Positions 1-32,000 of a stretch of DNA of 32,000 nt are shown in pieces. The DNA is from Nitrosopumilus sp. (GTDB taxonomy: Archaea > Thermoproteota > Nitrososphaeria > Nitrososphaerales > Nitrosopumilaceae): positions 536,251 through 568,250 of the forward strand of contig OZ240211.1 in assembly GCA_965197525.1 (NCBI GenBank), in the 5' to 3' direction. Position 1 is the stretch's first letter, and each line of letters opens with the position of its first letter. The notes under the pieces are model-generated. The model searched no databases and had not been told where the DNA came from. It saw only the letters and a list, made by a program, of their open reading frames with translations. The translations under genes and the position numbers were made by a program.

Positions 1-388
1 TGCCTCTCGAGATGTCAAGCCAACTTCGGCAAGACCCCGAAATATTTCAGAGACATCCTCAAGTACCACCCAGTGAAGCTGAATATTCTCCCGAGTGGAG
101 AAATGTGCGCTTCCAATAGAGTACTGTTCACTTAGTTGAGATATCTTTTCGAGTTGTTCGGGATACACCTCGCCTGCAGGGAGTTTGATTCTTACCATTG
201 CATAGTCAGAGGTCATCCTAGTGCCATACGCTCCGTGCTGGAGTCTAAATCGTCTGAAACTATCCTCAGAGTACTTGCCCTGACGGAATAATTTTACTGT
301 GGCAGCAAAGTTATCGGCCTCTTCAATTCTAGCCCAATTGATAGAGGGTTTTGAAATATGTTGTACTTTGGTATCAGACAAGGTCAAT
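1..388 (-). CDS. Sulfite/nitrite reductase (ferredoxin-type sirohaem/4Fe-4S hemoprotein), N-terminal part; the gene runs off the window start
   Basis: This ORF is not in the supplied track because it is open to the window edge. My own minus-strand translation from TTG at 388 (alternative TTG at 382) gives LTLSDTKVQHISKPSINWARIEEADNFAATVKLFRQGKYSEDSFRRFRLQHGAYGTRMTSDYAMVRIKLPAGEVYPEQLEKISQLSEQYSIGSAHFSTRENIQLHWVVLEDVSEIFRGLAEVGLTSREA with no stop. The FRRFRLQHGxYGxR ... RIKxPxG ... TRxNIQLHW pattern is typical of the N-terminus of the nitrite/sulfite reductase family. Confidence 0.65.
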
Positions 389-527
389 GTAAAGAAAATC
401 CATAGAGCGGTTATAAATTTTTAAGAATAGGATATTATTGACTAAAAAATTTGTAAATATACAGAATATTCCTATTTTAACGCATAATACTCAAACATCC
501 ATATCATATTTTGAAGATATTGTATAG

Positions 528-1937
528 GGGTTCTGTCTAATCATAGTGAGATAAAATCTAAACTCCGAAAAAAAGTTTTGTTGTAATATTAACAAAGTGT
601 CTTTTTCCCATCAGTTGACTTTGACATATCGACTATTTGGATTACCGGTGTACAGGGTTCCAACATCGCTAACTCAAAAACATTAGACTTCGCTTCACTT
701 ATGCCAACTCTACTATCCCTAAACCTAGGGGACAGTTTGTGAGGTATATTTATAGCAGCAATAACGTCTCTGTCCATAAACAACCCACAATTATTGCACG
801 ACTTTTTACGATGGTGTTGCAAGTCCTCTTGGAGTTTCTTTCCGCATCTTGGACATTGCGAGCTCGTGTTTTTTGGGTCTACAAATTTTACTGGAAGCCC
901 TACCCATTGGGCTTTGTATTGTATTTGTCTTTGAAATTCAAAGAATTGCCATCCGTTTAATCTACGTCTGTACTTGTTACCTTGACCATTGCCTTTCTTG
1001 TATAATTTTCTTATTCCTTTTAGATCTTCTAGAATAATCATGGTTTTGTTTTTGACTGCTCGTTCTACAATATCTTTTGAGATTCTATGTATGTATTGTT
1101 TGGTTCTTTGAGACATTCTTCTCTGCTTTATCTTCCAGAACTGATCTTTCTTTCTACGGTCATTTCTATGAAATCCAGCTCTAGCGTGTATTGTATTTTC
1201 TTTAATTGATAGTAATTTATTTGTCTTGTATACTATAACTTTTTTCTCATTCCCACAAGTGACATTTCTAAGATTTCTGTCTAATTCCTACCGGTACATT
1301 AGTACATTCTATTTCTTCAACTTTTTTTGAAACACAAAAACTGATACTTTTTTCATTCATAATAAATGATCTTATATTTAAATCAGGATTAGATAGTATT
1401 TTTTGAGTGTGATCATTTAATAATATGTTTATGGGGTTTCTATTTTTGTATGGTATTGTCATTAAACTACCATTATGTTTGATACCATAACAATTTGTAA
1501 TAAATAACTTTTTTACAACTAGGTCTCTTACTGTAACACCACGCTTTATTGACTGTTTTCTGTTAGATAGTATGCCAACAGCACGTGATATTGCATTTAT
1601 TTTATATGAACCTAAAACATCATAGTCTCTAAATTCATGATAACAAAGTGGAGACAACTGTTTCAAACTATGTACGTCTTCTCTTAACCCTATTCTAATG
1701 GAACGATTTACCATTTTTATGAATATCTCCATCAACTCTTTTAGATCAGAATTTGGTGTATGTTTCTGTGTTATTGATTTTAATGCCTTCATACTACTAG
1801 AACATGTTTTATTTTTTTAATAAAGGTACTTTTTTTGAAATTATTTTTATTCTTTGCCACTTGATAATCCAATAAAACCATTATTTGTTATTGTAAATCT
1901 AGATAAAAATTTATCTCCCTATAAATAGACAGAACAC
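528..1937 (-). mobile_element. TnpB-only insertion element, family 1, copy A (tnpB inactivated by a frameshift)
   Basis: Termini GGGTTCTGTCTA (528..539) and TAGACAGAACAC (1926..1937) form a 12-bp inverted repeat with one mismatch. The flanking direct repeat is TGTATAG(G) at 521..527/528 and 1938..1944/1945. A subterminal palindrome AGATAAAAATTTATCT lies at 1901..1916. The body is one disrupted tnpB gene. Confidence 0.7.
589..1792 (-). pseudogene. tnpB: tnpB (IS605 OrfB-type RNA-guided nuclease family) split by a 1-nt insertion
   Basis: Track ORFs 1268..1792 (N-terminal part) and 589..1116 (C-terminal part with ILEDLKG, CPRCG..CNNCG, DRDVIAAINI) belong to one gene. Compared with copy C, copy A reads GGAATTAGAC where C reads GGAATAGAC (plus strand about 1281..1288). 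Removing one T restores GIDRNLRNVTCGNEKKVIVYKTNKLLSIKENTIHARAGFHRNDRRKKDQFWKIKQRRMSQRTKQYIHRI, with no stop across 1117..1267. Confidence 0.8.
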
Positions 1938-1955
1938 TGTATAGGTAAGTATTAA

Positions 1956-3914: not shown

Positions 3915-4940
3915 TTACTCTACAACCGACGAACCAAATACATAACCTAATCTAAGAACAAGCCAAATACGTTCTGACTCTTCATCAGCTGTATCAGGAT
4001 CGTCATAGACTATCCAAGTCCGACGATGATCTTGAAGATCAGCCATAATATCTTCAGACGAACGTGCTGTATTATCAAGTATGTCTGATGTTTGTCCTTT
4101 GGCGTTTTGGTCAGAACCATCTGCCACTATGGTGTAATCATCAGAGTCCAAGACAAACAAGTGGTTGGTACTAGTACTGCTGTCTAATCCATTAATAGTT
4201 GCAAATGTTAGTGTTGTGCCCTTGTCTCTGAACAGATCAAGGTATTCATCAACTATATTTTGAGCTCTAACGGCAGAGGTCAGATAGTATCCGGAACCAA
4301 ATATGTAATCATCATGTAATAACAGTCGAGTATGTTTGATGTGAGGGGTATTATTAAACTCAATAGTATATTCAACCCAAGTAGCGCCGTTAAGTGCAAG
4401 ATCTTCTAGTATCTAGCTGTTCGGCCTGTCAGGATTTGCAAGAATATCTAAAAGCGGTACAGGAACATCATCACCTGCATCAGATACAATATTCATGTCA
4501 GAATCCAGTATGAATGGGAACGTGGGACCAAGATACAATAGCGTAGGCAAGTTCAAATAATAAATGATGCCAGGAAGTGCATCATATAAATTTGCGTATG
4601 CTTTTGTTAGAGATTCAACTATAAGTTTAGAAGGAACATAGTAGCCAGAACCATAGTAGCCATTGCTATAAACTAGTGTGGCTTCTTTGTGTTGTATTGT
4701 ATTAGTTGCAGGATTGATAAATGGATATCTTAATATTATTTCATCAGATAATGCGCGAAAATCAAACCTATCTACGTTAATATTTCCATTGAAGAGGAAA
4801 TCACTAGCGTTTGTGTTTACAAGATCAGGATATGCACCTTCTGCAACCACGGTTAATGTATCAGCATCAATAACAAACGGATATGGCGAATCATCAACAC
4901 TATTCAATCCGTTGATGGTATCAAACACTGCTTGTCCGTC
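3915..4940 (-). pseudogene. Decayed paralog of the Cache-like repeat region of the 1019-aa secreted protein (in-frame TAG, N-terminus missing)
   Basis: Track ORFs 4413..4928 and 3915..4160 are in one frame. My translation of 4161..4412 (ILEDLALNGATWVEYTIEFNNTPHIKHTRLLLHDDYIFGSGYYLTSAVRAQNIVDEYLDLFRDKGTTLTFATINGLDSSTSTNH) joins them, interrupted only by TAG at 4413..4415. It contains three units of the type YPFVIDxD...GSGYY, like those in 12988..16047. The frame is closed by TAA just upstream of 4940, with no ATG and no signal peptide. Confidence 0.7.
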
Positions 4941-8085: not shown

Positions 8086-8125
8086 ATTAAAATCTATTTG
8101 AACGCTTTTGATGTCGCATTACAGC

Positions 8126-8266
8126 CATCACCATCATCACCATCATCACCATCACCATCATCACCATCACCATCATCACCATCACCATCATCATCACCAT
8201 CATCACCATCACCATCATCACCATCACCATCATCACCATCACCATCATCATCACCATCATCACCAT
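8126..8266. repeat. (CAT/CAC)n trinucleotide tandem repeat, 47 units, with a 57-bp higher-order unit
   Basis: Read directly from the sequence. Codons 4-22 and 23-41 of the run are identical 19-codon blocks. The plus strand has no G from 8125 to 8281. Confidence 0.95.
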
Positions 8267-8366
8267 TCAACACTAAAACAAGTAGACAAGTCATCAAGTT
8301 AACAAAATTCAGATCTAAAATACTATATACGTTATAAACAACAAAACGTGATTCAGTATTTTAAAT

Positions 8367-9281: not shown

Positions 9282-9330
9282 TTATTAATAATATACGCTT
9301 TAAGATTATAACTTTTGTTAATTAAAAAAA

Positions 9331-10967
9331 GGGAATTACATACTTGGATTACATTATACGCCACTTATTTATAATACACCGATTATTAACTGGATGGAAA
9401 AAGAAATAGGAGATTTTATTTATAGAACAGTGATTGTAAAACCAAGGCAGACAAAAGAACTGTCATTGAAGGCACGCAGGATTGCAAACTTTCAGACGTA
9501 TTTTTTCAACATGGACGTAGAGGCAGGACTGGTTGAAAAATATGACAAAATCAAGACAAGCCGTACCATTACTGACATACATCACACCATGCCATGGAGC
9601 AACAAATACCACACCAATGTGGCAACAACTGCGTTCCAACAGGGGCATGATACGGCAGACAAACATTTGAAATCTTGCGCAAAAAAACGTAGGGTACGAA
9701 ACTGGGCAAAAAAGACTGGCGGTAAGAACCACAACTGGCACACATCATTTAAAAATCTCAAACCAAACAAATGGATTGACAGAAACAGTTTGTTCAGAAA
9801 CGCCAAAAATGCAAAACATGCATCCATAACAGTAAACGGTCAGAATCCCTCGCTAAGGATGGGAAAGTGGAAAAAACTGTACATGAACCTGCCCGGTATG
9901 GGCCAGGTGGAGCTGTTGTCGTCTTTGAAGAGTCTTCCAAAGCAACTGGTATGTGAAAGAGACAAAAACAATACCAACAAGTTCTACCAGACCAACATTG
10001 TGTCATACAGGCTTGTAGAGAACACCAAAAAAATCACTGTCAATACAAACGATTCGAACCGCACGTTTGAGATCCATCTGACACTAAAAATACAGAGACC
10101 TAAAAATACGGATCGTGCAGTCGTATGCGGAATAGACATGGGAGTTAGGAAATCCCTGGTAGTTCATGACGGAATAAACACCGATTTTTACAGGACGCCT
10201 TATACCTGTAGGAGAAAAAAAGATGATGTGATCTCAAAACAACAGTCAAAAAGAGACGGTTACAAACTGCATAGTAACAGATGGAAACAAAATGATCGTA
10301 AATTGAAGAAGATGGAAAAAACACTCAGCAACAGAAGAACCGAGCACAATAATTTCCTTGCCAAACAGATTGTGATGAGAACAGGAGTAATAGTCATGGA
10401 AAAACTAAACATTGGCAATATGACTGCAAAAAATGAAAAGTGGAAAAGCGGCCTTAACAGGGAGATTTACGGGGCAGGTATGGGAAGAATGGGAAAGAGA
10501 ATAAAAATGACTGCCGAAAACCATGGAACCAAAACGCTTGAGATTGTTCCACATTACACCAGCATAACGTGTAGTAGGTGCAATATGATCAACTGTGACT
10601 CTAGAACTACAAGGGATGTGTTTCAATGCGTATACTGTGGATTTCTGTGCGATGCAGACGATAACGCAGGCGCAAACATCAGACATTACGGACTTCCGTG
10701 CATACGAAGGCTCCCGCTTGTAGACAGATATGGAAACTACAGGTATGACAGCATGGAAAATATTATTTTAGCTAATAAAAATGGCACATCTAATAGTGTC
10801 AGTGTTATTAGTGGCGGTAGGGATTATCGTCACAAGACAGAAGAATCAAAACATGGCTTACACCATGTTGTTTCTAAAAAAGACGGCAAGAACCAAGCTG
10901 TGAATGATTTGTTGGACTGTCAGAAAAAAACCTTGGTGCAGAAACGTAACCTAGGTATATAATTCCC
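9331..10967 (+). mobile_element. TnpB-only element, family 2, full-length copy, with 13-bp TIR and 8-bp target duplication
   Basis: The left end GGGAATTACATAC (9331..9343) and the right end GTATATAATTCCC (10955..10967) match 12/13 as an inverted repeat. TAAAAAAA occurs immediately outside both ends (9323..9330 and 10968..10975). The boundaries are confirmed by alignment with the second copy at 25908..26293. Confidence 0.85.
9394..10962 (+). CDS. tnpB: TnpB-like RNA-guided endonuclease (RuvC plus zinc ribbon), 522 aa
   Basis: RuvC-I VCGIDMGVRK, RuvC-II VIVMEKLNIGNM, zinc ribbon CSRCN...CVYCG and RuvC-III CDADDNAGANI are all intact. An extension of about 90 aa follows RuvC-III. Confidence 0.9.
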   Translation: MEKEIGDFIYRTVIVKPRQTKELSLKARRIANFQTYFFNMDVEAGLVEKYDKIKTSRTITDIHHTMPWSNKYHTNVATTAFQQGHDTADKHLKSCAKKRRVRNWAKKTGGKNHNWHTSFKNLKPNKWIDRNSLFRNAKNAKHASITVNGQNPSLRMGKWKKLYMNLPGMGQVELLSSLKSLPKQLVCERDKNNTNKFYQTNIVSYRLVENTKKITVNTNDSNRTFEIHLTLKIQRPKNTDRAVVCGIDMGVRKSLVVHDGINTDFYRTPYTCRRKKDDVISKQQSKRDGYKLHSNRWKQNDRKLKKMEKTLSNRRTEHNNFLAKQIVMRTGVIVMEKLNIGNMTAKNEKWKSGLNREIYGAGMGRMGKRIKMTAENHGTKTLEIVPHYTSITCSRCNMINCDSRTTRDVFQCVYCGFLCDADDNAGANIRHYGLPCIRRLPLVDRYGNYRYDSMENIILANKNGTSNSVSVISGGRDYRHKTEESKHGLHHVVSKKDGKNQAVNDLLDCQKKTLVQKRNLGI

Positions 10968-10984
10968 TAAAAAAAAATAATGTA

Positions 10985-12560: not shown

Positions 12561-12950
12561 GGGTTCTGTGAAGTTATAGAGACCTGAAACATGGATGAAT
12601 AAATATCGTTAATTATATCATAATTATGTTGAATCCAACAAACACGAACACGCAATGTCCAGGATGCGGAAAGATATTCCAAGAGGACATGCAATACAGA
12701 CGTAAAATATCGTGTACCAATTGTGGATTGTTCATGAACAGCAACAACATTGTCATGAACACATCTCACAAGCTGTCCCCTAGATTTAGGGATAGTAGAG
12801 GTGACATACATGAAGCACAGACTAACACTTTTGAGTTAGCAATGTCGGAACCCAGTACACAGGTAATCCGAATAGTCGATATGTCAAAGTCAAGTAATAG
12901 GAGAAACACACCTTGGTAAATCAACGGGTACCTATAACTTCACAGAACCG
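12561..12950 (+). mobile_element. MITE-like derivative of the family-1 TnpB element (copy B): both termini plus only the 3-prime third of tnpB
   Basis: A perfect 18-bp inverted repeat GGTTCTGTGAAGTTATAG (12562..12579) / CTATAACTTCACAGAACC (12932..12949) encloses a tnpB C-terminal fragment. The same GGTTCTGTGAAGTTAT terminus lies downstream of copy C at 31228..31243. Confidence 0.7.
12626..12919 (+). pseudogene. tnpB: tnpB 3-prime fragment (zinc ribbon to stop), catalytic motif degenerated
   Basis: It aligns to the C-terminus of copies A and C (QCPGCG...SCTNCGLFM...SPRFRDSRGD...VIRIVDMSKSS). RuvC-III DRDIIAAMNI is replaced by NSNNIVMNT, and the N-terminal two thirds are absent. Confidence 0.8.
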
Positions 12951-22008: not shown

Positions 22009-22359
22009 TCATTTGACAATACTGCCCAAAGGAATACTGTCTCCTCTACCTTCTTCGTCTTCTTTTACTGTCAACCAAAACGGTTTATCATCAACATCTA
22101 CTGCAAGTAACATTGCATTGGATTCAACACCTGCCATTTTTCTTGGCTCAAGATTTGCAACGACAATAACTATCTTGTCCAACATAGATTCAGGAGTAAA
22201 ATACTGAGCGCCGCCAATTATAACATCACGCAGGTCATCATTACCTAGATCAATTTTGCCTCGGATGATTCTAGATTTGCCGGGAATTGGTGCAGCTTCA
22301 ATAACTTTTGCAACTCTAATATCCAGCTTTGCAAAATCATCATATGATACACTATTCAT
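22009..22359 (-). CDS. tRNA-binding OB-fold protein (Trbp111/CsaA/EMAPII-like)
   Basis: FAKLDIRVAKVIEAAPIPGKSRIIRGKIDLG...IVIVVANLEPRKMAGVESNAMLLA is the typical tRNA-binding domain signature. ATG 22359 is preferred over the track start at TTG 22380. Confidence 0.8.
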   Translation of the reverse strand: MNSVSYDDFAKLDIRVAKVIEAAPIPGKSRIIRGKIDLGNDDLRDVIIGGAQYFTPESMLDKIVIVVANLEPRKMAGVESNAMLLAVDVDDKPFWLTVKEDEEGRGDSIPLGSIVK

Positions 22360-22396
22360 GGTAACCAAACAGAGTACCAACTAAAATAAATTTCGA

Positions 22397-22498
22397 ATTA
22401 ATTAATCAACAATCAATCAATTAATCAATCAATTAATCAACAATCAATCAATTAATCAACAATAATCAATTAATCAACAATCAATCAATCAATCAACA
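22397..22498. repeat. G-free AATC/TCAA-based tandem repeat with five TTAATCAA cores
   Basis: TTAATCAA occurs at 22402, 22421, 22433, 22452 and 22470 (spacings 19, 12, 19, 18), embedded in (CAAT)n. It lies immediately upstream of the minus-strand gene that starts at 22359/22380. Confidence 0.9.
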
Positions 22499-22570
22499 TT
22501 ACCCATATTATTTAATTAAAGACGGAACGAATTGTAAAAAATAGACGTCATCAGTGAGTCAAATATTCGT

Positions 22571-25907: not shown

Positions 25908-26293
25908 GGGAATTATATACCTAGGTTACGTTTCTGCACCAAGGTTTTTTTCTGACAGTCCAACAAATCATTCACAGCTTCCTGTTGGAACGCAGTTGTT
26001 GCCACATTGGTGTGGTATTTGTTGCTCCATGGCATGGTGTGATGTATGGTAGTAATGGTACGGCTTGTCTTGATTTTGTCATATTTTTCAACCAGTCCTG
26101 CCTCTACGCCCATGTTGAAAAAATACGTCTGAAAGTTTGCAATCTTGCGTGCCTTTAATGACAGTTCTTTTGTCTGCCTTGGTTTTACAATCACTGTTCT
26201 ATAAATAAAATCTTTTATTTCTTTTTCCATCCAGTTAATAATCGGTGTATTATATATAATTGACGTATAATGTAATCCAAGTATGTAATTCCC
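25908..26293 (-). mobile_element. 386-bp internal-deletion (MITE-like) derivative of the family-2 TnpB element
   Basis: It is collinear with 9331..9643 plus 10895..10967 of the full copy, so 1251 bp are missing. The termini are GGGAATTATATAC (25908..25920) and GTATGTAATTCCC (26281..26293). An 8-bp direct repeat GTTAACAT lies at 25900..25907 and 26294..26301. Confidence 0.85.
25913..26230 (-). pseudogene. tnpB: In-frame deletion remnant of tnpB (N-terminal 83 aa fused to the last 22 aa)
   Basis: The track ORF MEKEIKDFIYRTVIV...TTAFQQ|EAVNDLLDCQKKTLVQKRNLGI matches both ends of the 522-aa TnpB. All RuvC and zinc-ribbon motifs are deleted. Confidence 0.8.
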
Positions 26294-26302
26294 GTTAACA
26301 TA

Positions 26303-27602
26303 CAGTAGTCGGAAATGTACCCATTAGGCAGGTTTTCCGACATCATACGGTTGACCCACCATCCTACATAATTCCAATGCAGCCATTGCTGTAGCATATA
26401 CGACAAGTGCCAAAGTCACACGATCATAACTCGAATCTGCACGATACTGCTCCACTGCCCACGCGTTGTACATGAACAGCGAGACGTAAAACATGATTAC
26501 CCTAAACGACGCATTGCGGCTTGTTGTCCTCGGGCGTACCTGCTCGACTTGCTTGTATCCTGTCTCTATCCCCCACCTTCTCCGGTACTCCTCCGGAAGC
26601 GTCTCAATCTCGTCTAGTGCCCTGGTAGGAGAAAGATTGGTGGCAAAGACATGATATCTTTCCGTGGTATTGACATCAGGATCGTCTATCTTTTTTGAGG
26701 GTGTGATTATCAATGTGAATGTGACAGACTGGCCTGCTGCGTTTCTGACGGTGTACTGCGAGACTGCCTTGCGTAATTTATCGTGATGCTCTTGTATCAT
26801 CCTCTTTATCCCCGTGTTCTTGACTGCAGGCATCAGGAACTTGCGTCCGTGTTCTGATACAAGTTTGATTATCTCAGTCGAGTAAAACTCGCGGTCCATC
26901 AGCAGCAACCGGGCCCGTATCCTGTAATCCACGAGTTTTTGGACGAATTTACGCACAAAGTCGGCGTCATCCACGCTGCGCGTGACCTGCATGCACTCTA
27001 AAATGGCCGGAACCTGTTCTGCTACCACATGCATTGTTGCGTAACACTCGAACTTGCTTGTACCGCCCTTTGGTTTGGATCTTGTCAGATGTGACATGTT
27101 GTCCTTGTCGTGCCTTGGTATCAGGTGTTTATCTATTGCTACTAGTACGCCCCCCTTGTACCGGCACGTATTCTTGGCAAGCCTTGCGGTGCGTGTGATC
27201 ATATCCATGCAGAGCTCGTCTGCACTGTCTGATTCCAGCGAGTTTATCATGTTGCGAAACCACTTGGGCGACGGCATCTTCTTTTTGGCGTGCTTGAGCA
27301 GCCGGATTGCCTCCTCAGAAGCTATGTTGGATTCAGACATCTTCATCAGTATGGCTGCAAACTCGCTTACCCCGTATTGGGCATTGTTCCTCGTAGAGAA
27401 TCCTATGGGTGCAGACTCTAGTATTCCTGACAAGGTATTAAGTATCCTTTCTCCAATCTTATTGTGGTGTACCTGCCCACCTTTTTGCGTTAACACTAAG
27501 GTGGGTAAGGGCACTGTAGGTAATAGATCAGTATGTTCGAAGAATGTTAACATAATTGAGAACATCTGTTGGTTGATTTAGGGAGTACATTTCCGACTAC
27601 TG
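26303..27602 (-). mobile_element. Complete 1300-bp insertion sequence with a DDE transposase (IS4/IS5/ISH3 superfamily)
   Basis: A perfect 18-bp TIR is CAGTAGTCGGAAATGTAC (26303..26320) and its complement (27585..27602). A 5-bp direct repeat ACATA lies at 26298..26302 and 27603..27607. A single transposase ORF fills the element. Confidence 0.85.
26324..27565 (-). CDS. DDE transposase (IS4/ISH3-like)
   Basis: The candidate catalytic contexts are VLVAIDKH (D), LLLMDREFYS (D) and YRRRWGIETGYK, the last being the Y-x2-R-x3-E signature of IS4/IS5-type transposases. Confidence 0.85.
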   Translation of the reverse strand: MFSIMLTFFEHTDLLPTVPLPTLVLTQKGGQVHHNKIGERILNTLSGILESAPIGFSTRNNAQYGVSEFAAILMKMSESNIASEEAIRLLKHAKKKMPSPKWFRNMINSLESDSADELCMDMITRTARLAKNTCRYKGGVLVAIDKHLIPRHDKDNMSHLTRSKPKGGTSKFECYATMHVVAEQVPAILECMQVTRSVDDADFVRKFVQKLVDYRIRARLLLMDREFYSTEIIKLVSEHGRKFLMPAVKNTGIKRMIQEHHDKLRKAVSQYTVRNAAGQSVTFTLIITPSKKIDDPDVNTTERYHVFATNLSPTRALDEIETLPEEYRRRWGIETGYKQVEQVRPRTTSRNASFRVIMFYVSLFMYNAWAVEQYRADSSYDRVTLALVVYATAMAALELCRMVGQPYDVGKPA

Positions 27603-31226: not shown

Positions 31227-32000
31227 TGGTTCTGTGAAGTTATCAGGAGTTAACCCCTATAACTCGACTTTGACATATCGACTATTCGGATTACCAATGG
31301 TGTGCTGGGTTCCGTCATCGCAGGCTCAAAAGTGCCAGACTGTGCTTCACATATGTCACCTCTACTACCCCTAAACCTAGGGGGCAGTTTGCGTGATATG
31401 TTCATGGCAGCGATAATATCCCTATCCATAAACAAACCGCAATTATTACACGACAATTTACGATGTTGTTGCATGTCCTCTTGGAGTCTCTTTCCGCATT
31501 GTGGACACTGCGTGCTCGTGTTTCTTGGGTCTACTATCTCGACTGGAGGTAGTCCGACCCATTGGGCTTTGTATTCTATTTGGCGTTGTAACTCGTAGAA
31601 TTGCCACCCGTTCAATCTACGTCTGTACTTGTTACCTTGAGTGTTTCCTTTTCGGTACAATTTTCTTATTCCTTTCAGGTTTTCCATGACGATTGCAGTC
31701 TTGTTTTTGACTGCGTTGTCTACTATATCCTTTGAGATTCTGTGGATGTACTGCTTTGCTCTGTTAGTCAGTCTTCTCTGTTTTTCCTTGTAGAACTGAT
31801 TTTTCTTCCTGCGATCATTTCTGTGGAAGCCTGCCCTGGCGTGTATTGTGTTCTCCTTTATGGATAACAGTTTGTTTGTCTTGTAGACTGTCACCTCTTT
31901 CTCGTTCCCGCACGTCACATTTCTTAGGTTTCTGTCTATTCCCACTTTCTTGGTGCACTCTATCTCTTGTACTGTTTTTGAAACACAAAGACTGATGTTC
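31227..32000 (-). mobile_element. TnpB-only element, family 1, copy C (apparently intact; extends past the window end)
   Basis: The terminus GGTTCTGTGAAGTTAT (31228..31243) is shared with copy B. A subterminal hairpin lies at the stop codon (sense strand GUUAUAGGGG-UUAA-CUCCUGAUAAC). Confidence 0.7.
31250..32000 (-). CDS. tnpB: TnpB (IS605 OrfB-type), partial at the window edge
   Basis: The track ORF begins at Met 31945, but the frame stays open to position 32000 (NISLCVSKTVQEIECTKKVGIDRN), matching copy A upstream of its frameshift. RuvC-I GIDRN, RuvC-II IVMENLKG, zinc ribbon CPQCG..CNNCG and RuvC-III DRDIIAAMNI are intact. Confidence 0.85.
   Translation of the reverse strand, partial: NISLCVSKTVQEIECTKKVGIDRNLRNVTCGNEKEVTVYKTNKLLSIKENTIHARAGFHRNDRRKKNQFYKEKQRRLTNRAKQYIHRISKDIVDNAVKNKTAIVMENLKGIRKLYRKGNTQGNKYRRRLNGWQFYELQRQIEYKAQWVGLPPVEIVDPRNTSTQCPQCGKRLQEDMQQHRKLSCNNCGLFMDRDIIAAMNISRKLPPRFRGSRGDICEAQSGTFEPAMTEPSTPLVIRIVDMSKSSYRG

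What the first reader, a model, noticed from the sequence alone, without database searches (positions are those of the whole stretch)
9323..10975. TnpB-only element with 13-bp terminal inverted repeats and an 8-bp target duplication, unlike canonical IS200/IS605
**Seen in sequence:**
- The ends GGGAATTACATAC (9331..9343) and GTATATAATTCCC (10955..10967) form a 12/13 inverted repeat.
- The octamer TAAAAAAA lies directly outside both ends.
- The second copy (25908..26293) has the same termini but a different flanking octamer (GTTAACAT on both sides), so the duplication is target-derived and 8 bp long.

**Established knowledge:**
- IS200/IS605 elements mobilised by the Y1 transposase TnpA have no TIRs and generate no target duplication.
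- A fixed-length duplication next to TIRs is the signature of staggered-cut DDE-type integration.

**Inference:**
- This catalytically intact-looking TnpB (GIDMG, MEKLN, DADDNAGANI, CxxC..CxxC) rides in a non-autonomous cut-and-paste element with no transposase of its own.
- The element would be mobilised in trans by an unidentified enzyme. The neighbouring IS at 26303..27602 has unrelated TIRs and a 5-bp TSD, so it is not the partner.
- At 522 aa the protein is also larger than typical TnpB (about 400 aa), with a tail of about 90 aa after RuvC-III that may simply overlie the guide-RNA scaffold.
Basis: partly seen in the sequence, partly recalled or inferred. Interest (0 to 1): 0.75.

Follow-up and report, generated by a model that had tools for sequence, protein, structure and literature searches.

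The report
TnpB cargo inside IS1595-type transposon ends
A 1.6-kb mobile element in a probable archaeal genome carries only an RNA-guided nuclease gene (TnpB) and its likely guide-RNA scaffold, yet its ends and 8-bp target duplications are those of IS1595-family DDE transposons, so it is probably moved by a transposase encoded elsewhere.

Summary
Element 9331..10967 has 12/13 inverted termini and the direct repeat TAAAAAAA on both sides. A 386-bp internal-deletion copy (25908..26293) has the same termini and a different 8-bp repeat, GTTAACAT.

The 522-aa protein is a TnpB with its RuvC D-E-D residues and zinc finger intact. It belongs to a rare subfamily: 18 clusters among 5.8 billion, all from metagenome assemblies. 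I recovered seven independent insertions in five assemblies. Each has a perfect 8-bp duplication, and all seven differ.

A scan for the terminal sequence found 40 distinct elements with these ends in IMG/VR. Of these, 22 encode an IS1595-family transposase and 23 have perfect 8-bp duplications. The element is therefore a transposase-less IS1595-type shell carrying TnpB.

The last ~160 nt of the gene show excess synonymous conservation and a covarying six-helix structure that ends at the right terminus. This fits an omegaRNA scaffold.

No matching transposase was found in 143 kb around the archaeal copies, so the partner is inferred, not shown. DDE-associated and solo TnpBs are already published (Altae-Tran 2023). 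The IS1595 link appeared in no paper I could search. Verdict: new variant of a known kind.

The parts
9323..9330 (.). Left copy of the 8-bp target-site duplication, TAAAAAAA
   Evidence: Read directly. It is identical to 10968..10975 and is bounded by non-matching bases.
9331..9355 (+). Left terminal inverted repeat. The core is GGGAATTACATAC (9331..9343). An imperfect extension runs through the GATTAC motif.
   Evidence: The left end matches the consensus of 38 ends of IS1595-transposase-encoding elements at 18/25 positions.
9366..9375 (+). A+T-rich TATA-like box (ATTTATAATA) about 24 nt upstream of the ATG. It may be an archaeal promoter for a leaderless tnpB mRNA (inferred only).
   Evidence: Seen in the sequence. 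No tool tested it.
9394..10962 (+). tnpB ORF, 522 aa. It has WED/REC-like N-terminal half, a RuvC domain (D248, E336, D422), a CxxC..CxxC zinc finger, and a tail of ~75-90 aa.
   Evidence: Pfam PF01385 and PF07282. NF040570 at 110.5 bits, above its cutoff of 100. A profile of the subfamily hits ISDra2 TnpB, Fanzor L79 and Cas12f in the PDB. Foldseek's best match is ISDra2 TnpB at E 1e-7, on a low-confidence model. Invariant catalytic columns are listed.
10812..10956 (+). Conserved structured region on the sense strand, overlapping the last ~50 codons. It is a candidate omegaRNA (reRNA) scaffold. Helices: H1 10812-20/10824-32, H2 10836-39/10918-21, H3 10844-48/10905-10, H4 10850-56/10863-69, H5 10884-87/10897-900, H6 10930-35/10951-56.
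   Evidence: RNAalifold predicts 33 pairs, 13 with compensatory changes. 95.8% of cells are paired, against 28-44% when the partners are slid, and the covariation score is 0.509 against at most 0.148. 42 of 264 cells are G-U, which points to the sense strand. Codon identity at conserved residues is 0.76 here against 0.44 in the rest of the gene. Invariant codons number 7/11 here against 10/113 elsewhere, Fisher p = 6e-5. No other 165-nt window of the gene folds below -7.3 kcal/mol.
10955..10967 (-). Right terminal inverted repeat. On the minus strand it reads GGGAATTATATAC. It contains the tnpB stop codon.
   Evidence: It is identical at 13/13 positions to the termini of IS1595-family elements.
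10968..10975 (.). Right copy of the 8-bp target-site duplication, TAAAAAAA
25900..25907 (.). Target-site duplication of the short copy, GTTAACAT. It contains the stop codon of the upstream HtrA-like gene.
25908..26293 (-). MITE-like internal-deletion derivative, 386 bp. It consists of element positions 1..313 joined to the last 73 nt. Both TIRs are kept. It has no intact ORF and lacks the 5' part of the structured RNA region.
   Evidence: (I1 97%, I6 100%).
26294..26301 (.). Second copy of the duplication GTTAACAT

Best explanation
The 1637-bp element is a non-autonomous member of the IS1595 family of DDE transposons, judged by its ends and its insertion footprint. The transposase gene is absent. 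The whole interior is an OMEGA module: a tnpB gene plus a structured RNA encoded in its last ~160 nt.

**Shown**
- The element has IS1595-type terminal inverted repeats.
- It makes variable 8-bp target duplications at A+T-rich sites.
- It has produced a MITE-like deletion derivative in the same genome at 97-100% identity, which indicates recent mobility.
- The TnpB keeps all catalytic and zinc-binding residues.
- The 3' region is constrained at the nucleotide level and has a covarying secondary structure that ends at the right terminal repeat.

**Inferred**
- An IS1595-family transposase (zinc ribbon plus DDE) encoded elsewhere in the genome binds the GGGAATTAYATAC ends. It integrates the element through cuts staggered by 8 bp.
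- The structured RNA is an omegaRNA that is transcribed through the right end. Its guide would then be the flanking DNA, starting with or just after the duplicated octamer.
- TnpB-omegaRNA cleaves copies of the site that lack the element. This would promote retention or spread by recombinational repair, as proposed for IS200/IS605 elements and for Fanzors in DDE transposons.

**Open question**
The octamer differs at every site. How a fixed TAM requirement could be met is not explained.
For: **Ends and footprint**
- The window has two copies with different perfect 8-bp repeats.
- Five further insertions of relatives down to 42% identity have perfect, distinct 8-bp repeats. Their termini are conserved as GGGRMTTAYATAY.

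**Family of the ends**
- Scanning IMG/VR for GGGAATTATATACNNNRGT gave 110 loci, containing 40 distinct TIR-paired elements.
- 22 of the 40 encode a protein 57-100% identical to a 311-aa IS1595 transposase. That protein scores 198 bits on NF033547 (cutoff 75) and matches PF12762 and PF12760.
- 23 of the 40 have perfect 8-bp repeats, mostly A+T-rich. One of them is TAAAAAAA.
- Most of the others are 263-785-bp MITEs.
- Similarity extends beyond the searched bases. The L091 and L004 ends match single IS1595 ends at 22/25 positions. For L091 this includes all of positions 20-25, which the search did not constrain.

**TnpB identity**

**RNA**

**Precedent**
Altae-Tran et al. 2023 (PMC10691335) report inverted terminal repeats around all six DDE-associated TnpB branches. 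[quoted passage not shown]
Against: - No IS1595 transposase with matching ends was found in the window or in any flank of the archaeal subfamily, 143 kb in all.
- The one IS1595 gene remnant next to a relative (L002 4031..4504) belongs to another subgroup. Its termini are GGTGATT..., so it is not the partner.
- All elements found with both a transposase and these ends are G+C-rich (51-66%) bacterial or phage sequences. The TnpB elements sit in ~38% G+C genomes that are probably archaeal.
- The IS1595 elements were retrieved using the terminus itself as the query. Identity over the first 13 nt of at least one end is therefore by construction.
- Expression of the RNA, its 3' end, and nuclease activity are untested.
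- The variable octamer leaves the TAM logic unexplained.
Confidence: 0.7

Rival explanations
1. The element is mobilised in trans by a DDE transposase of another, possibly undescribed, archaeal family that also makes 8-bp staggered cuts. On this view the resemblance of the ends to IS1595 termini is convergent, or reflects only distant common ancestry.
For: No matching IS1595 gene was seen in 143 kb of host sequence. All IS1595 elements with these ends are bacterial or phage-borne. Several IS families give 8-bp duplications (own knowledge: IS6, IS256, ISL3, IS66, hAT). The window also holds a second TnpB-only element with different ends (GGTTCTGT...) and an 8-bp duplication. This shows that more than one such system operates in this genome.
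Against: The termini are identical at 13/13 positions. Up to 22/25 positions match IS1595 ends, including positions the search did not constrain. The duplication length and the A+T-rich target preference are the same. Convergence over that length is very unlikely.
Confidence: 0.15
2. The element is autonomous. The unusually long TnpB-like protein, whose RuvC domain has the RNase H fold shared with DDE transposases, itself carries out TIR-dependent excision and integration with an 8-bp stagger. It may do so with its RNA.
For: The ORF fills the element. The pairing of this TnpB subfamily with these ends is conserved down to 42% protein identity. No partner was found nearby. The N-terminal ~230 aa match no sequence family.
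Against: The same ends flank 22 elements that encode a bona fide IS1595 transposase. They also flank MITEs with no ORF at all, so the ends are recognised by that enzyme class. TnpB is dispensable for IS200/IS605 transposition (stated in PMC13565253). The N-terminal half is modelled as a strand and helix arrangement that Foldseek aligns with ISDra2 TnpB and Cas12f. No extra transposase-like domain is detected.
Confidence: 0.05
3. It is an ordinary IS200/IS605 IS1341-type element mobilised by a Y1 TnpA. On this view the apparent TIRs and duplications are part of the element or are coincidental.
For: TnpB-only (IS1341-group) elements are common. A hairpin (H6) sits next to the right end.
Against: Seven insertions have seven different flanking octamers, each perfectly duplicated. 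Homology between copies stops exactly at the TIR tips. No conserved tetra- or pentanucleotide lies next to the left end. No Y1 gene was seen in any locus.
Confidence: 0.02

Closest known systems
DDE-transposase-associated TnpB branches and solo TnpBs sharing their ends (Altae-Tran et al. 2023, PNAS, PMC10691335). The 2026 review PMC13565253 names the families as ISL2, IS630 and IS1031.
   Same: TnpB lies inside a unit bounded by inverted terminal repeats. Its 3' end lies close to the transposon end. Solo copies have the ends of transposase-encoding elements and are presumed to be mobilised in trans.
   Different: The end type here is IS1595-family, which neither paper's main text names. A search for papers containing both 'TnpB' and 'IS1595' found none describing the association. 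No copy with the transposase in cis was found. The hosts are probably archaeal. The duplication is a variable octamer rather than a fixed TA. I could not read that paper's supplement, so an overlap with one of its unnamed DDE branches is not excluded.
IS1595 family of insertion sequences. The ends resemble the ISNwi1 group as I recall it from ISfinder (ends ggnnatTAT, 8-bp duplication, members with passenger genes). That group assignment is from memory and untested.
   Same: The termini GGGAATTATATAC, the 8-bp duplications, the A+T-rich targets, the MITE derivatives and the carriage of passenger genes are all shared.
   Different: The element has no transposase gene, which is the family's defining protein. 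The cargo is an RNA-guided nuclease module instead.
Fanzor1 elements of eukaryotes, which are TnpB homologues carried in DDE transposons with TIRs and TSDs
   Same: An RNA-guided RuvC nuclease, longer than canonical TnpB, rides in a cut-site-duplicating transposon. Its guide RNA is encoded at the transposon end (PMC13565253).
   Different: This element is prokaryotic. The protein groups by sequence with TnpB and Cas12f. In Fanzor1 the 5' duplication serves as part of the TAM and is usually a fixed short motif. Here the octamer varies freely.
IS200/IS605 IS1341-group elements (TnpB only)
   Same: The only gene is tnpB, and an RNA scaffold overlaps its 3' end.
   Different: Those elements have no TIRs, make no duplication, and insert next to a fixed short motif through a Y1 transposase (PMC13565253). 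All three features were tested here and not met.

Membership tests
TnpB (RNA-guided endonuclease, OMEGA) | Sequence-model match above the curated threshold | tested here: met
   NF040570 scores 110.5 bits against a cutoff of 100. PF01385 scores 46.4 (cutoff 30.5) and PF07282 scores 46.5 (cutoff 26.3).
TnpB (RNA-guided endonuclease, OMEGA) | RuvC-I/II/III catalytic D-E-D and a CxxC..CxxC zinc finger | tested here: met
   D248, E336, D422, C393, C396, C412 and C415 are invariant in 17 subfamily members. They align with the ISDra2-type RuvC domain.
TnpB (RNA-guided endonuclease, OMEGA) | Overall TnpB fold (WED, REC, RuvC, TNB) | tested here: inconclusive
   The AlphaFold model has mean pLDDT 54 and the RuvC half is poorly modelled. 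Even so, the best Foldseek matches are ISDra2 TnpB (E 1e-7) and Cas12f.
TnpB (RNA-guided endonuclease, OMEGA) | omegaRNA scaffold encoded at or overlapping the 3' end of the gene and reaching the element end | tested here: inconclusive
   A conserved sense-strand structure has 13 compensatory pairs and excess synonymous constraint. Transcription and the guide portion are untested. There is no Rfam match.
TnpB (RNA-guided endonuclease, OMEGA) | RNA-guided, TAM-dependent DNA cleavage | not testable with these tools
   This needs biochemistry.
IS200/IS605 (Y1 TnpA-mobilised), including the IS1341 group | No terminal inverted repeats, with subterminal hairpins instead | tested here: not met
   The element has 13-nt TIRs (12/13 match), extending imperfectly to ~24 nt, conserved across the subfamily.
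IS200/IS605 (Y1 TnpA-mobilised), including the IS1341 group | No target-site duplication, and insertion next to a fixed tetra- or pentanucleotide | tested here: not met
   Seven insertions have seven different, perfectly duplicated octamers.
IS1595 family | Family-type terminal inverted repeats | tested here: met
   The termini are identical at 13/13 positions to those of 22 elements that encode an IS1595 transposase. Up to 22/25 positions match.
IS1595 family | 8-bp target-site duplication | tested here: met
   7 of 9 insertions of the TnpB elements show it, as do 23 of 40 reference elements.
IS1595 family | Encodes a DDE transposase with an N-terminal zinc ribbon (PF12762 and PF12760) | tested here: not met
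   The only ORF is tnpB. tblastn finds no such gene in the window. The element can therefore be filed only as a non-autonomous derivative.
MITE (for the copy at 25908..26293) | Short, bounded by TIRs, flanked by a duplication, non-coding, and derived from a longer element | tested here: met
   It is 386 bp with both TIRs and the duplication GTTAACAT. It is an internal deletion of the full copy.
IS607 (serine-recombinase TnpA plus TnpB) | Serine recombinase gene, no TIRs and no duplication | tested here: not met
   No such gene is present, while TIRs and duplications are. NF038280 scores 81 bits against a cutoff of 350.

The most novel reading that the evidence does not exclude
No IS1595 transposase exists in these archaeal genomes, and the long TnpB (with its RNA) mobilises its own TIR-bounded element. 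It would then be a RuvC-fold protein acting as both transposase and guided nuclease. A milder version is also not excluded: the partner exists, but the omegaRNA guide begins in a freely variable octamer. The nuclease would then have to work with little or no TAM constraint, or serve a purpose other than homing.
Probability: 0.05. Interest if true: 0.95.

Novelty: new variant of a known kind. Interest (0 to 1): 0.55.

Why it matters
TnpB is thought to help transposons that excise without a scar (IS200/IS605, IS607). Why it should help DDE transposons, and how a TAM-dependent nuclease copes with variable duplications, is an open point in the field. The 2026 review read here raises it explicitly.

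This family offers a compact prokaryotic test case:
- the element is 1.6 kb and contains nothing but TnpB and its RNA;
- its IS1595-type ends are well defined;
- its insertion sites are clean and recent;
- natural MITE derivatives exist.

IS1595 is, from my own knowledge, the prokaryotic relative of eukaryotic Merlin transposons. The family may therefore also inform how Fanzor-type associations arose.

The practical interest is modest. It is one more divergent TnpB, 520 aa long, with a predicted scaffold. If the guide really starts in arbitrary flanking sequence, its TAM requirement could be unusual.

Tried and rejected
- **Exact look-up of the window's TnpB and of a neighbouring gene**. Neither was on record, so I could not reach the rest of the source genome. 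Two window proteins are recorded on a 2,210,164-bp NCBI/ENA contig.
- **GTDB representative genomes scanned with the subfamily alignment**. This returned only one unrelated 33%-identity hit. The family, and the source genome, are absent from that collection.
- **IMG/VR scanned with the same alignment**. It found only generic TnpBs at 34% identity or less, none with these ends.
- **The IS1595 gene remnant beside the L002 copy, tested as a candidate partner.** I collected its relatives. They form a ~910-bp subgroup with GGTGATT... termini, and the L002 remnant ends in the same motif. Rejected as partner.
- **The solo end at L001 7008, tested as the tip of an autonomous element**. It is a 126-bp fragment abutting a host gene. 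It has no informative protein match, and no exact match to its first 23 nt was found in JGI metagenomes.
- **Possible ends at L002 11146 and 11526**. Judged to be chance matches.
- **Rfam gathering-threshold scan and tRNA scan of the window**. Neither found anything.
- **Structure prediction from the 17-sequence alignment**. Confidence was too low for domain-level claims about the N-terminal half or the tail.
- **The TIR of the second TnpB family (GGTTCTGTGAAGTTAT) scanned in IMG/VR**. It gave only 15 unpaired matches, which are uninformative.
- **The supplement of Altae-Tran 2023.** It is not held, so I could not check whether one of its unnamed DDE branches is IS1595.
Full report
**1. The observation**

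The sequence is as described.
- The full copy spans 9331..10967 (1637 bp). Its ends are GGGAATTACATAC and, on the other strand, GGGAATTATATAC, a 12/13 match. TAAAAAAA flanks it on both sides.
- A second copy spans 25908..26293 in the opposite orientation. It consists of the first 313 nt (97% identical) joined to the last 73 nt (100% identical) of the full copy. It is a MITE-like internal deletion, flanked by GTTAACAT on both sides.
- With up to two mismatches allowed, the degenerate terminus occurs only at these four positions in 32 kb.
- The adjacent IS (26303..27602) has perfect 18-bp TIRs, a 5-bp duplication ACATA and an ISH3-like transposase. Its duplication overlaps that of the MITE. Removing both elements restores a single target, which independently shows that the octamer is target-derived.

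**2. The gene**

ORF 9394..10962 (522 aa) fills the element. It leaves 63 nt upstream, and its stop codon lies inside the right TIR.
- It matches PF01385 and PF07282. It passes NCBI's TnpB model NF040570 at 110.5 bits against a cutoff of 100, but not the IS200- or IS607-specific TnpB models.
- A homology search found a sharply bounded subfamily of 18 clusters (41-93% identity, 320-564 aa). All come from ENA or Logan metagenome assemblies. Scores then drop abruptly to ordinary TnpBs that match only the C-terminal half.
- In 17 aligned members, D248, E336, D422 and both CxxC pairs are invariant.
- A profile of the subfamily hits ISDra2 TnpB, the mimivirus TnpB-like protein L79 and Cas12f in the PDB, over the RuvC half only.
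- The AlphaFold model is poor (pLDDT 54). Its best Foldseek matches are nevertheless ISDra2 TnpB and Cas12f.

The host is probably an archaeon. It has an ISH3-like IS, an archaeal-type thiazole synthase, a family-I ProRS and the genes cofE and cofH, and its G+C content is 38%. I did not establish its taxonomy.

**3. The ends and footprint are a property of the whole subfamily**

I recovered DNA for seven relatives.
- Five have both ends and perfect 8-bp flanking repeats, all different:
  - L003: TTGAATTT
  - L004: TCATGTCT
  - L088: TGAATTTT
  - L089: TTTTATTT
  - L091: TTTATCTT
- With the two window copies, that makes seven independent insertions with seven different octamers.
- L002 has both ends but unmatched flanks.
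- L001 lacks its left 54 bp.
- The termini are conserved as GGGRMTTAYATAY, followed by GGTTAC in the closer relatives or AGTA in the 42%-identity group.

This excludes a Y1-type mechanism. It is the signature of integration by staggered cuts (established knowledge).

**4. Whose ends are these?**

From memory, 'GG..ATTAT' with an 8-bp duplication is the ISfinder description of one IS1595 group. I tested that lead.
- A scan of IMG/VR for GGGAATTATATACNNNRGT returned 110 loci.
- They contain 40 distinct elements with the terminus in inverted pairs.
- 22 of the 40 encode a ~310-aa protein. One of them scores 198 bits on NF033547 'IS1595 family transposase' and matches PF12762 and PF12760. The others are 57-79% identical to it.
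- 23 of the 40 have perfect 8-bp duplications, mostly A+T-rich although the contigs hold 51-66% G+C.
- Most of the rest are 263-785-bp MITEs.
- Several transposase-bearing members carry a passenger ORF after the transposase gene (seen in L101, L138 and L154). The one tested is weakly PAPS-reductase-like.

One end of each hit is identical to my query by construction, so the informative comparison is beyond the searched bases. The L091 left end (GGGAATTACATACAATAGTACAGTT) matches an IS1595 end (GGGAATTATATACATGAGTACAGTT) at 22/25 positions, including all six unconstrained positions 20-25. L004 and L088 also reach 22/25.

I conclude that the TnpB elements carry IS1595-family ends.

**5. The partner is not yet seen**

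tblastn with the IS1595 transposase found nothing in the window or in 143 kb around the relatives. The exception is a decayed gene next to the L002 copy. Its relatives form a different subgroup: ~910-bp elements with GGTGATT... termini. The L002 remnant ends in that same motif, so it is a bystander.

The two window copies are 97-100% identical. A source of transposase should therefore exist, or have existed recently, in this 2.21-Mb genome. I could not read the rest of it.

**6. The 3' region**

I compared eight family members at residues conserved between them.
- **Codon identity.** The same codon is used in 44% of such pairs along the gene, but in 76% from residue 467 onward. Among columns with an invariant degenerate amino acid, the codon is invariant in 7/11 in the tail against 10/113 elsewhere (Fisher p = 6e-5).
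- **Predicted structure.** RNAalifold on the last ~160 nt predicts six helices with 33 pairs, 13 of them with compensatory changes.
- **Controls.** On the named structure, 95.8% of cells pair, against 28-44% when the partners are slid by 1-3 columns. The covariation score is 0.509 against at most 0.148. No shuffle out of 500 reaches the observed pairing or covariation score.
- **Strand.** One cell in six is G-U, which only the sense strand can form.
- **Specificity.** Sliding the same analysis along the whole gene gives at best -7.3 kcal/mol elsewhere. The tail gives -14.9 (coding part only) to -21.4 kcal/mol.

The structure ends at 10956, and the last 11 nt are the outer TIR. This is what an omegaRNA scaffold looks like in IS200/IS605 TnpB systems. 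Its expression and its guide are untested. The MITE keeps only the last 73 nt and so lacks most of the structure.

**7. Mechanism**

*Shown:* IS1595-type ends, 8-bp duplications, recent mobility, an intact nuclease gene and a constrained structured 3' region.

*Inferred:* mobilisation in trans by an IS1595-family transposase; read-through of the RNA into the flank to supply a guide; and cleavage of element-free copies of the site to favour retention or spread.

*Weak point:* in Fanzors the 5' duplication forms part of the TAM (PMC13565253). Here the octamer is different at every site. Either the TAM lies elsewhere, or it is very relaxed, or TnpB does something else for this element.

**8. Comparison with what is known**

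- TnpBs inside DDE transposons are published. These have inverted terminal repeats, and solo TnpBs share such ends (Altae-Tran et al. 2023, PMC10691335).
- A 2026 review lists the DDE families as ISL2, IS630 and IS1031, and stresses how rare such associations are in prokaryotes.
- IS1595 is not mentioned in either main text.
- No paper in the searchable library links TnpB with IS1595 as one element, or TnpB with Thaumarchaeota.

The kind is therefore known. The IS1595 shell, the transposase-less archaeal subfamily with a free 8-bp duplication, and the long protein whose tail doubles as RNA scaffold together make a new variant.

**9. Wider pattern noticed along the way**

- Three IMG/VR contigs carry a canonical 388-390-aa TnpB (NF040570, 261 bits) that exactly fills a 1.2-1.4-kb unit bounded by the same IS1595-type ends. 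None has matching flanks. IS1595 ends have thus captured TnpB in at least two unrelated lineages.
- The window itself holds a second, unrelated TnpB-only element (529..1937). Its ends are different (GGTTCTGT...), and it has a perfect 8-bp duplication TGTATAGG.
- TnpB riding in DDE-type shells may therefore be common in this genome.

Noticed in passing
window 521..1945 (element 529..1937, minus strand); related sequence at 31228..32000 and 12562..12949: A second, unrelated TnpB-only element of 1409 bp. Its ends are GGTTCTGTCTAATCATAG and GTGTTCTGTCTATTTATAG. It has a perfect 8-bp duplication TGTATAGG at 521..528 and 1938..1945. Its ~400-aa tnpB is frameshifted at the RuvC-I motif. A ~80%-identical copy with an intact GIDRN motif starts at 31228 and runs off the window. 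A 388-bp MITE-like derivative (12562..12949) has TIRs of 18 bp perfect, 23 bp at 91%, keeps the 3' part of the gene, and has no matching flanks. From memory, the GGTTCTGT terminus with an 8-bp duplication resembles IS6-family ends. An IMG/VR scan for the terminus gave only unpaired matches.
   Followed up: partly
L093 1865..3074; L152 7525..8737; L288 1863..3290: Phage or bacterial contigs (53-58% G+C) carry a canonical 388-390-aa TnpB (NF040570, 261 bits) that fills a 1.2-1.4-kb unit bounded by the same IS1595-type ends. In all three the 8-bp flanks do not match. Two further relatives (L286, L287) have no recognisable ends. L287 has a separate IS1595-like gene 1.6 kb away.
   Followed up: partly
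window 26303..27602: An ISH3-like insertion sequence with a 413-aa DDE_Tnp_1 transposase (NF033541, E 8e-46). It has perfect 18-bp TIRs CAGTAGTCGGAAATGTAC and a 5-bp duplication ACATA that overlaps the MITE's duplication. A similar ISH3-like IS sits next to the truncated left end of the L001 copy.
   Followed up: yes
L101 1971..3852, L154 708..2831, L138 5447..7405 and others: IS1595-family elements with GGGAATTATATAC ends, 1.5-2.1 kb long. L101, L138 and L154 carry a passenger ORF of 230-270 aa after the transposase gene. The L101 ORF, the only one tested, is weakly PAPS-reductase-like (PF01507, 21.8 bits, just under the 22.5 cutoff).
   Followed up: partly
L207 2217..3129, L208 140..1058, L209 2216..3130, L265 87..1000, L275 53..962; L002 4031..4504: A compact (~910 bp) IS1595 subgroup with GGTGATT... 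termini is abundant in A+T-rich metagenome contigs. A decayed member lies 440 bp upstream of the L002 TnpB element. About five tandem ~54-bp repeats follow it (L002 ~4620..4870).
   Followed up: partly
L001 7008..7133; L091 19843 (minus strand): Solo ends with the same terminus and no partner end. The L001 one is a 126-bp fragment abutting a host gene. The L091 one is of the GGGGCTTATATA subtype.
   Followed up: partly
window 8094..8300: A run of imperfect CAT/CAC repeats with 9- and 15-nt spacing and 12 registered copies. Depending on the frame, it reads as poly-His or as Ser-Pro repeats. It lies between two genes, and its function is unknown.
   Followed up: no
window 22396..22500: Tandem A+T-rich repeats of the type AATCAATTAATCAAC, downstream of ORF 22009..22380 (family D4).
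   Followed up: no
L004 7863..8345; L088 1892..2170: The 1.13-Mb circular contig carries further short ORFs with the TnpB zinc-finger (TNB) domain near the full copies. This suggests many decayed TnpB elements in that genome.
   Followed up: no
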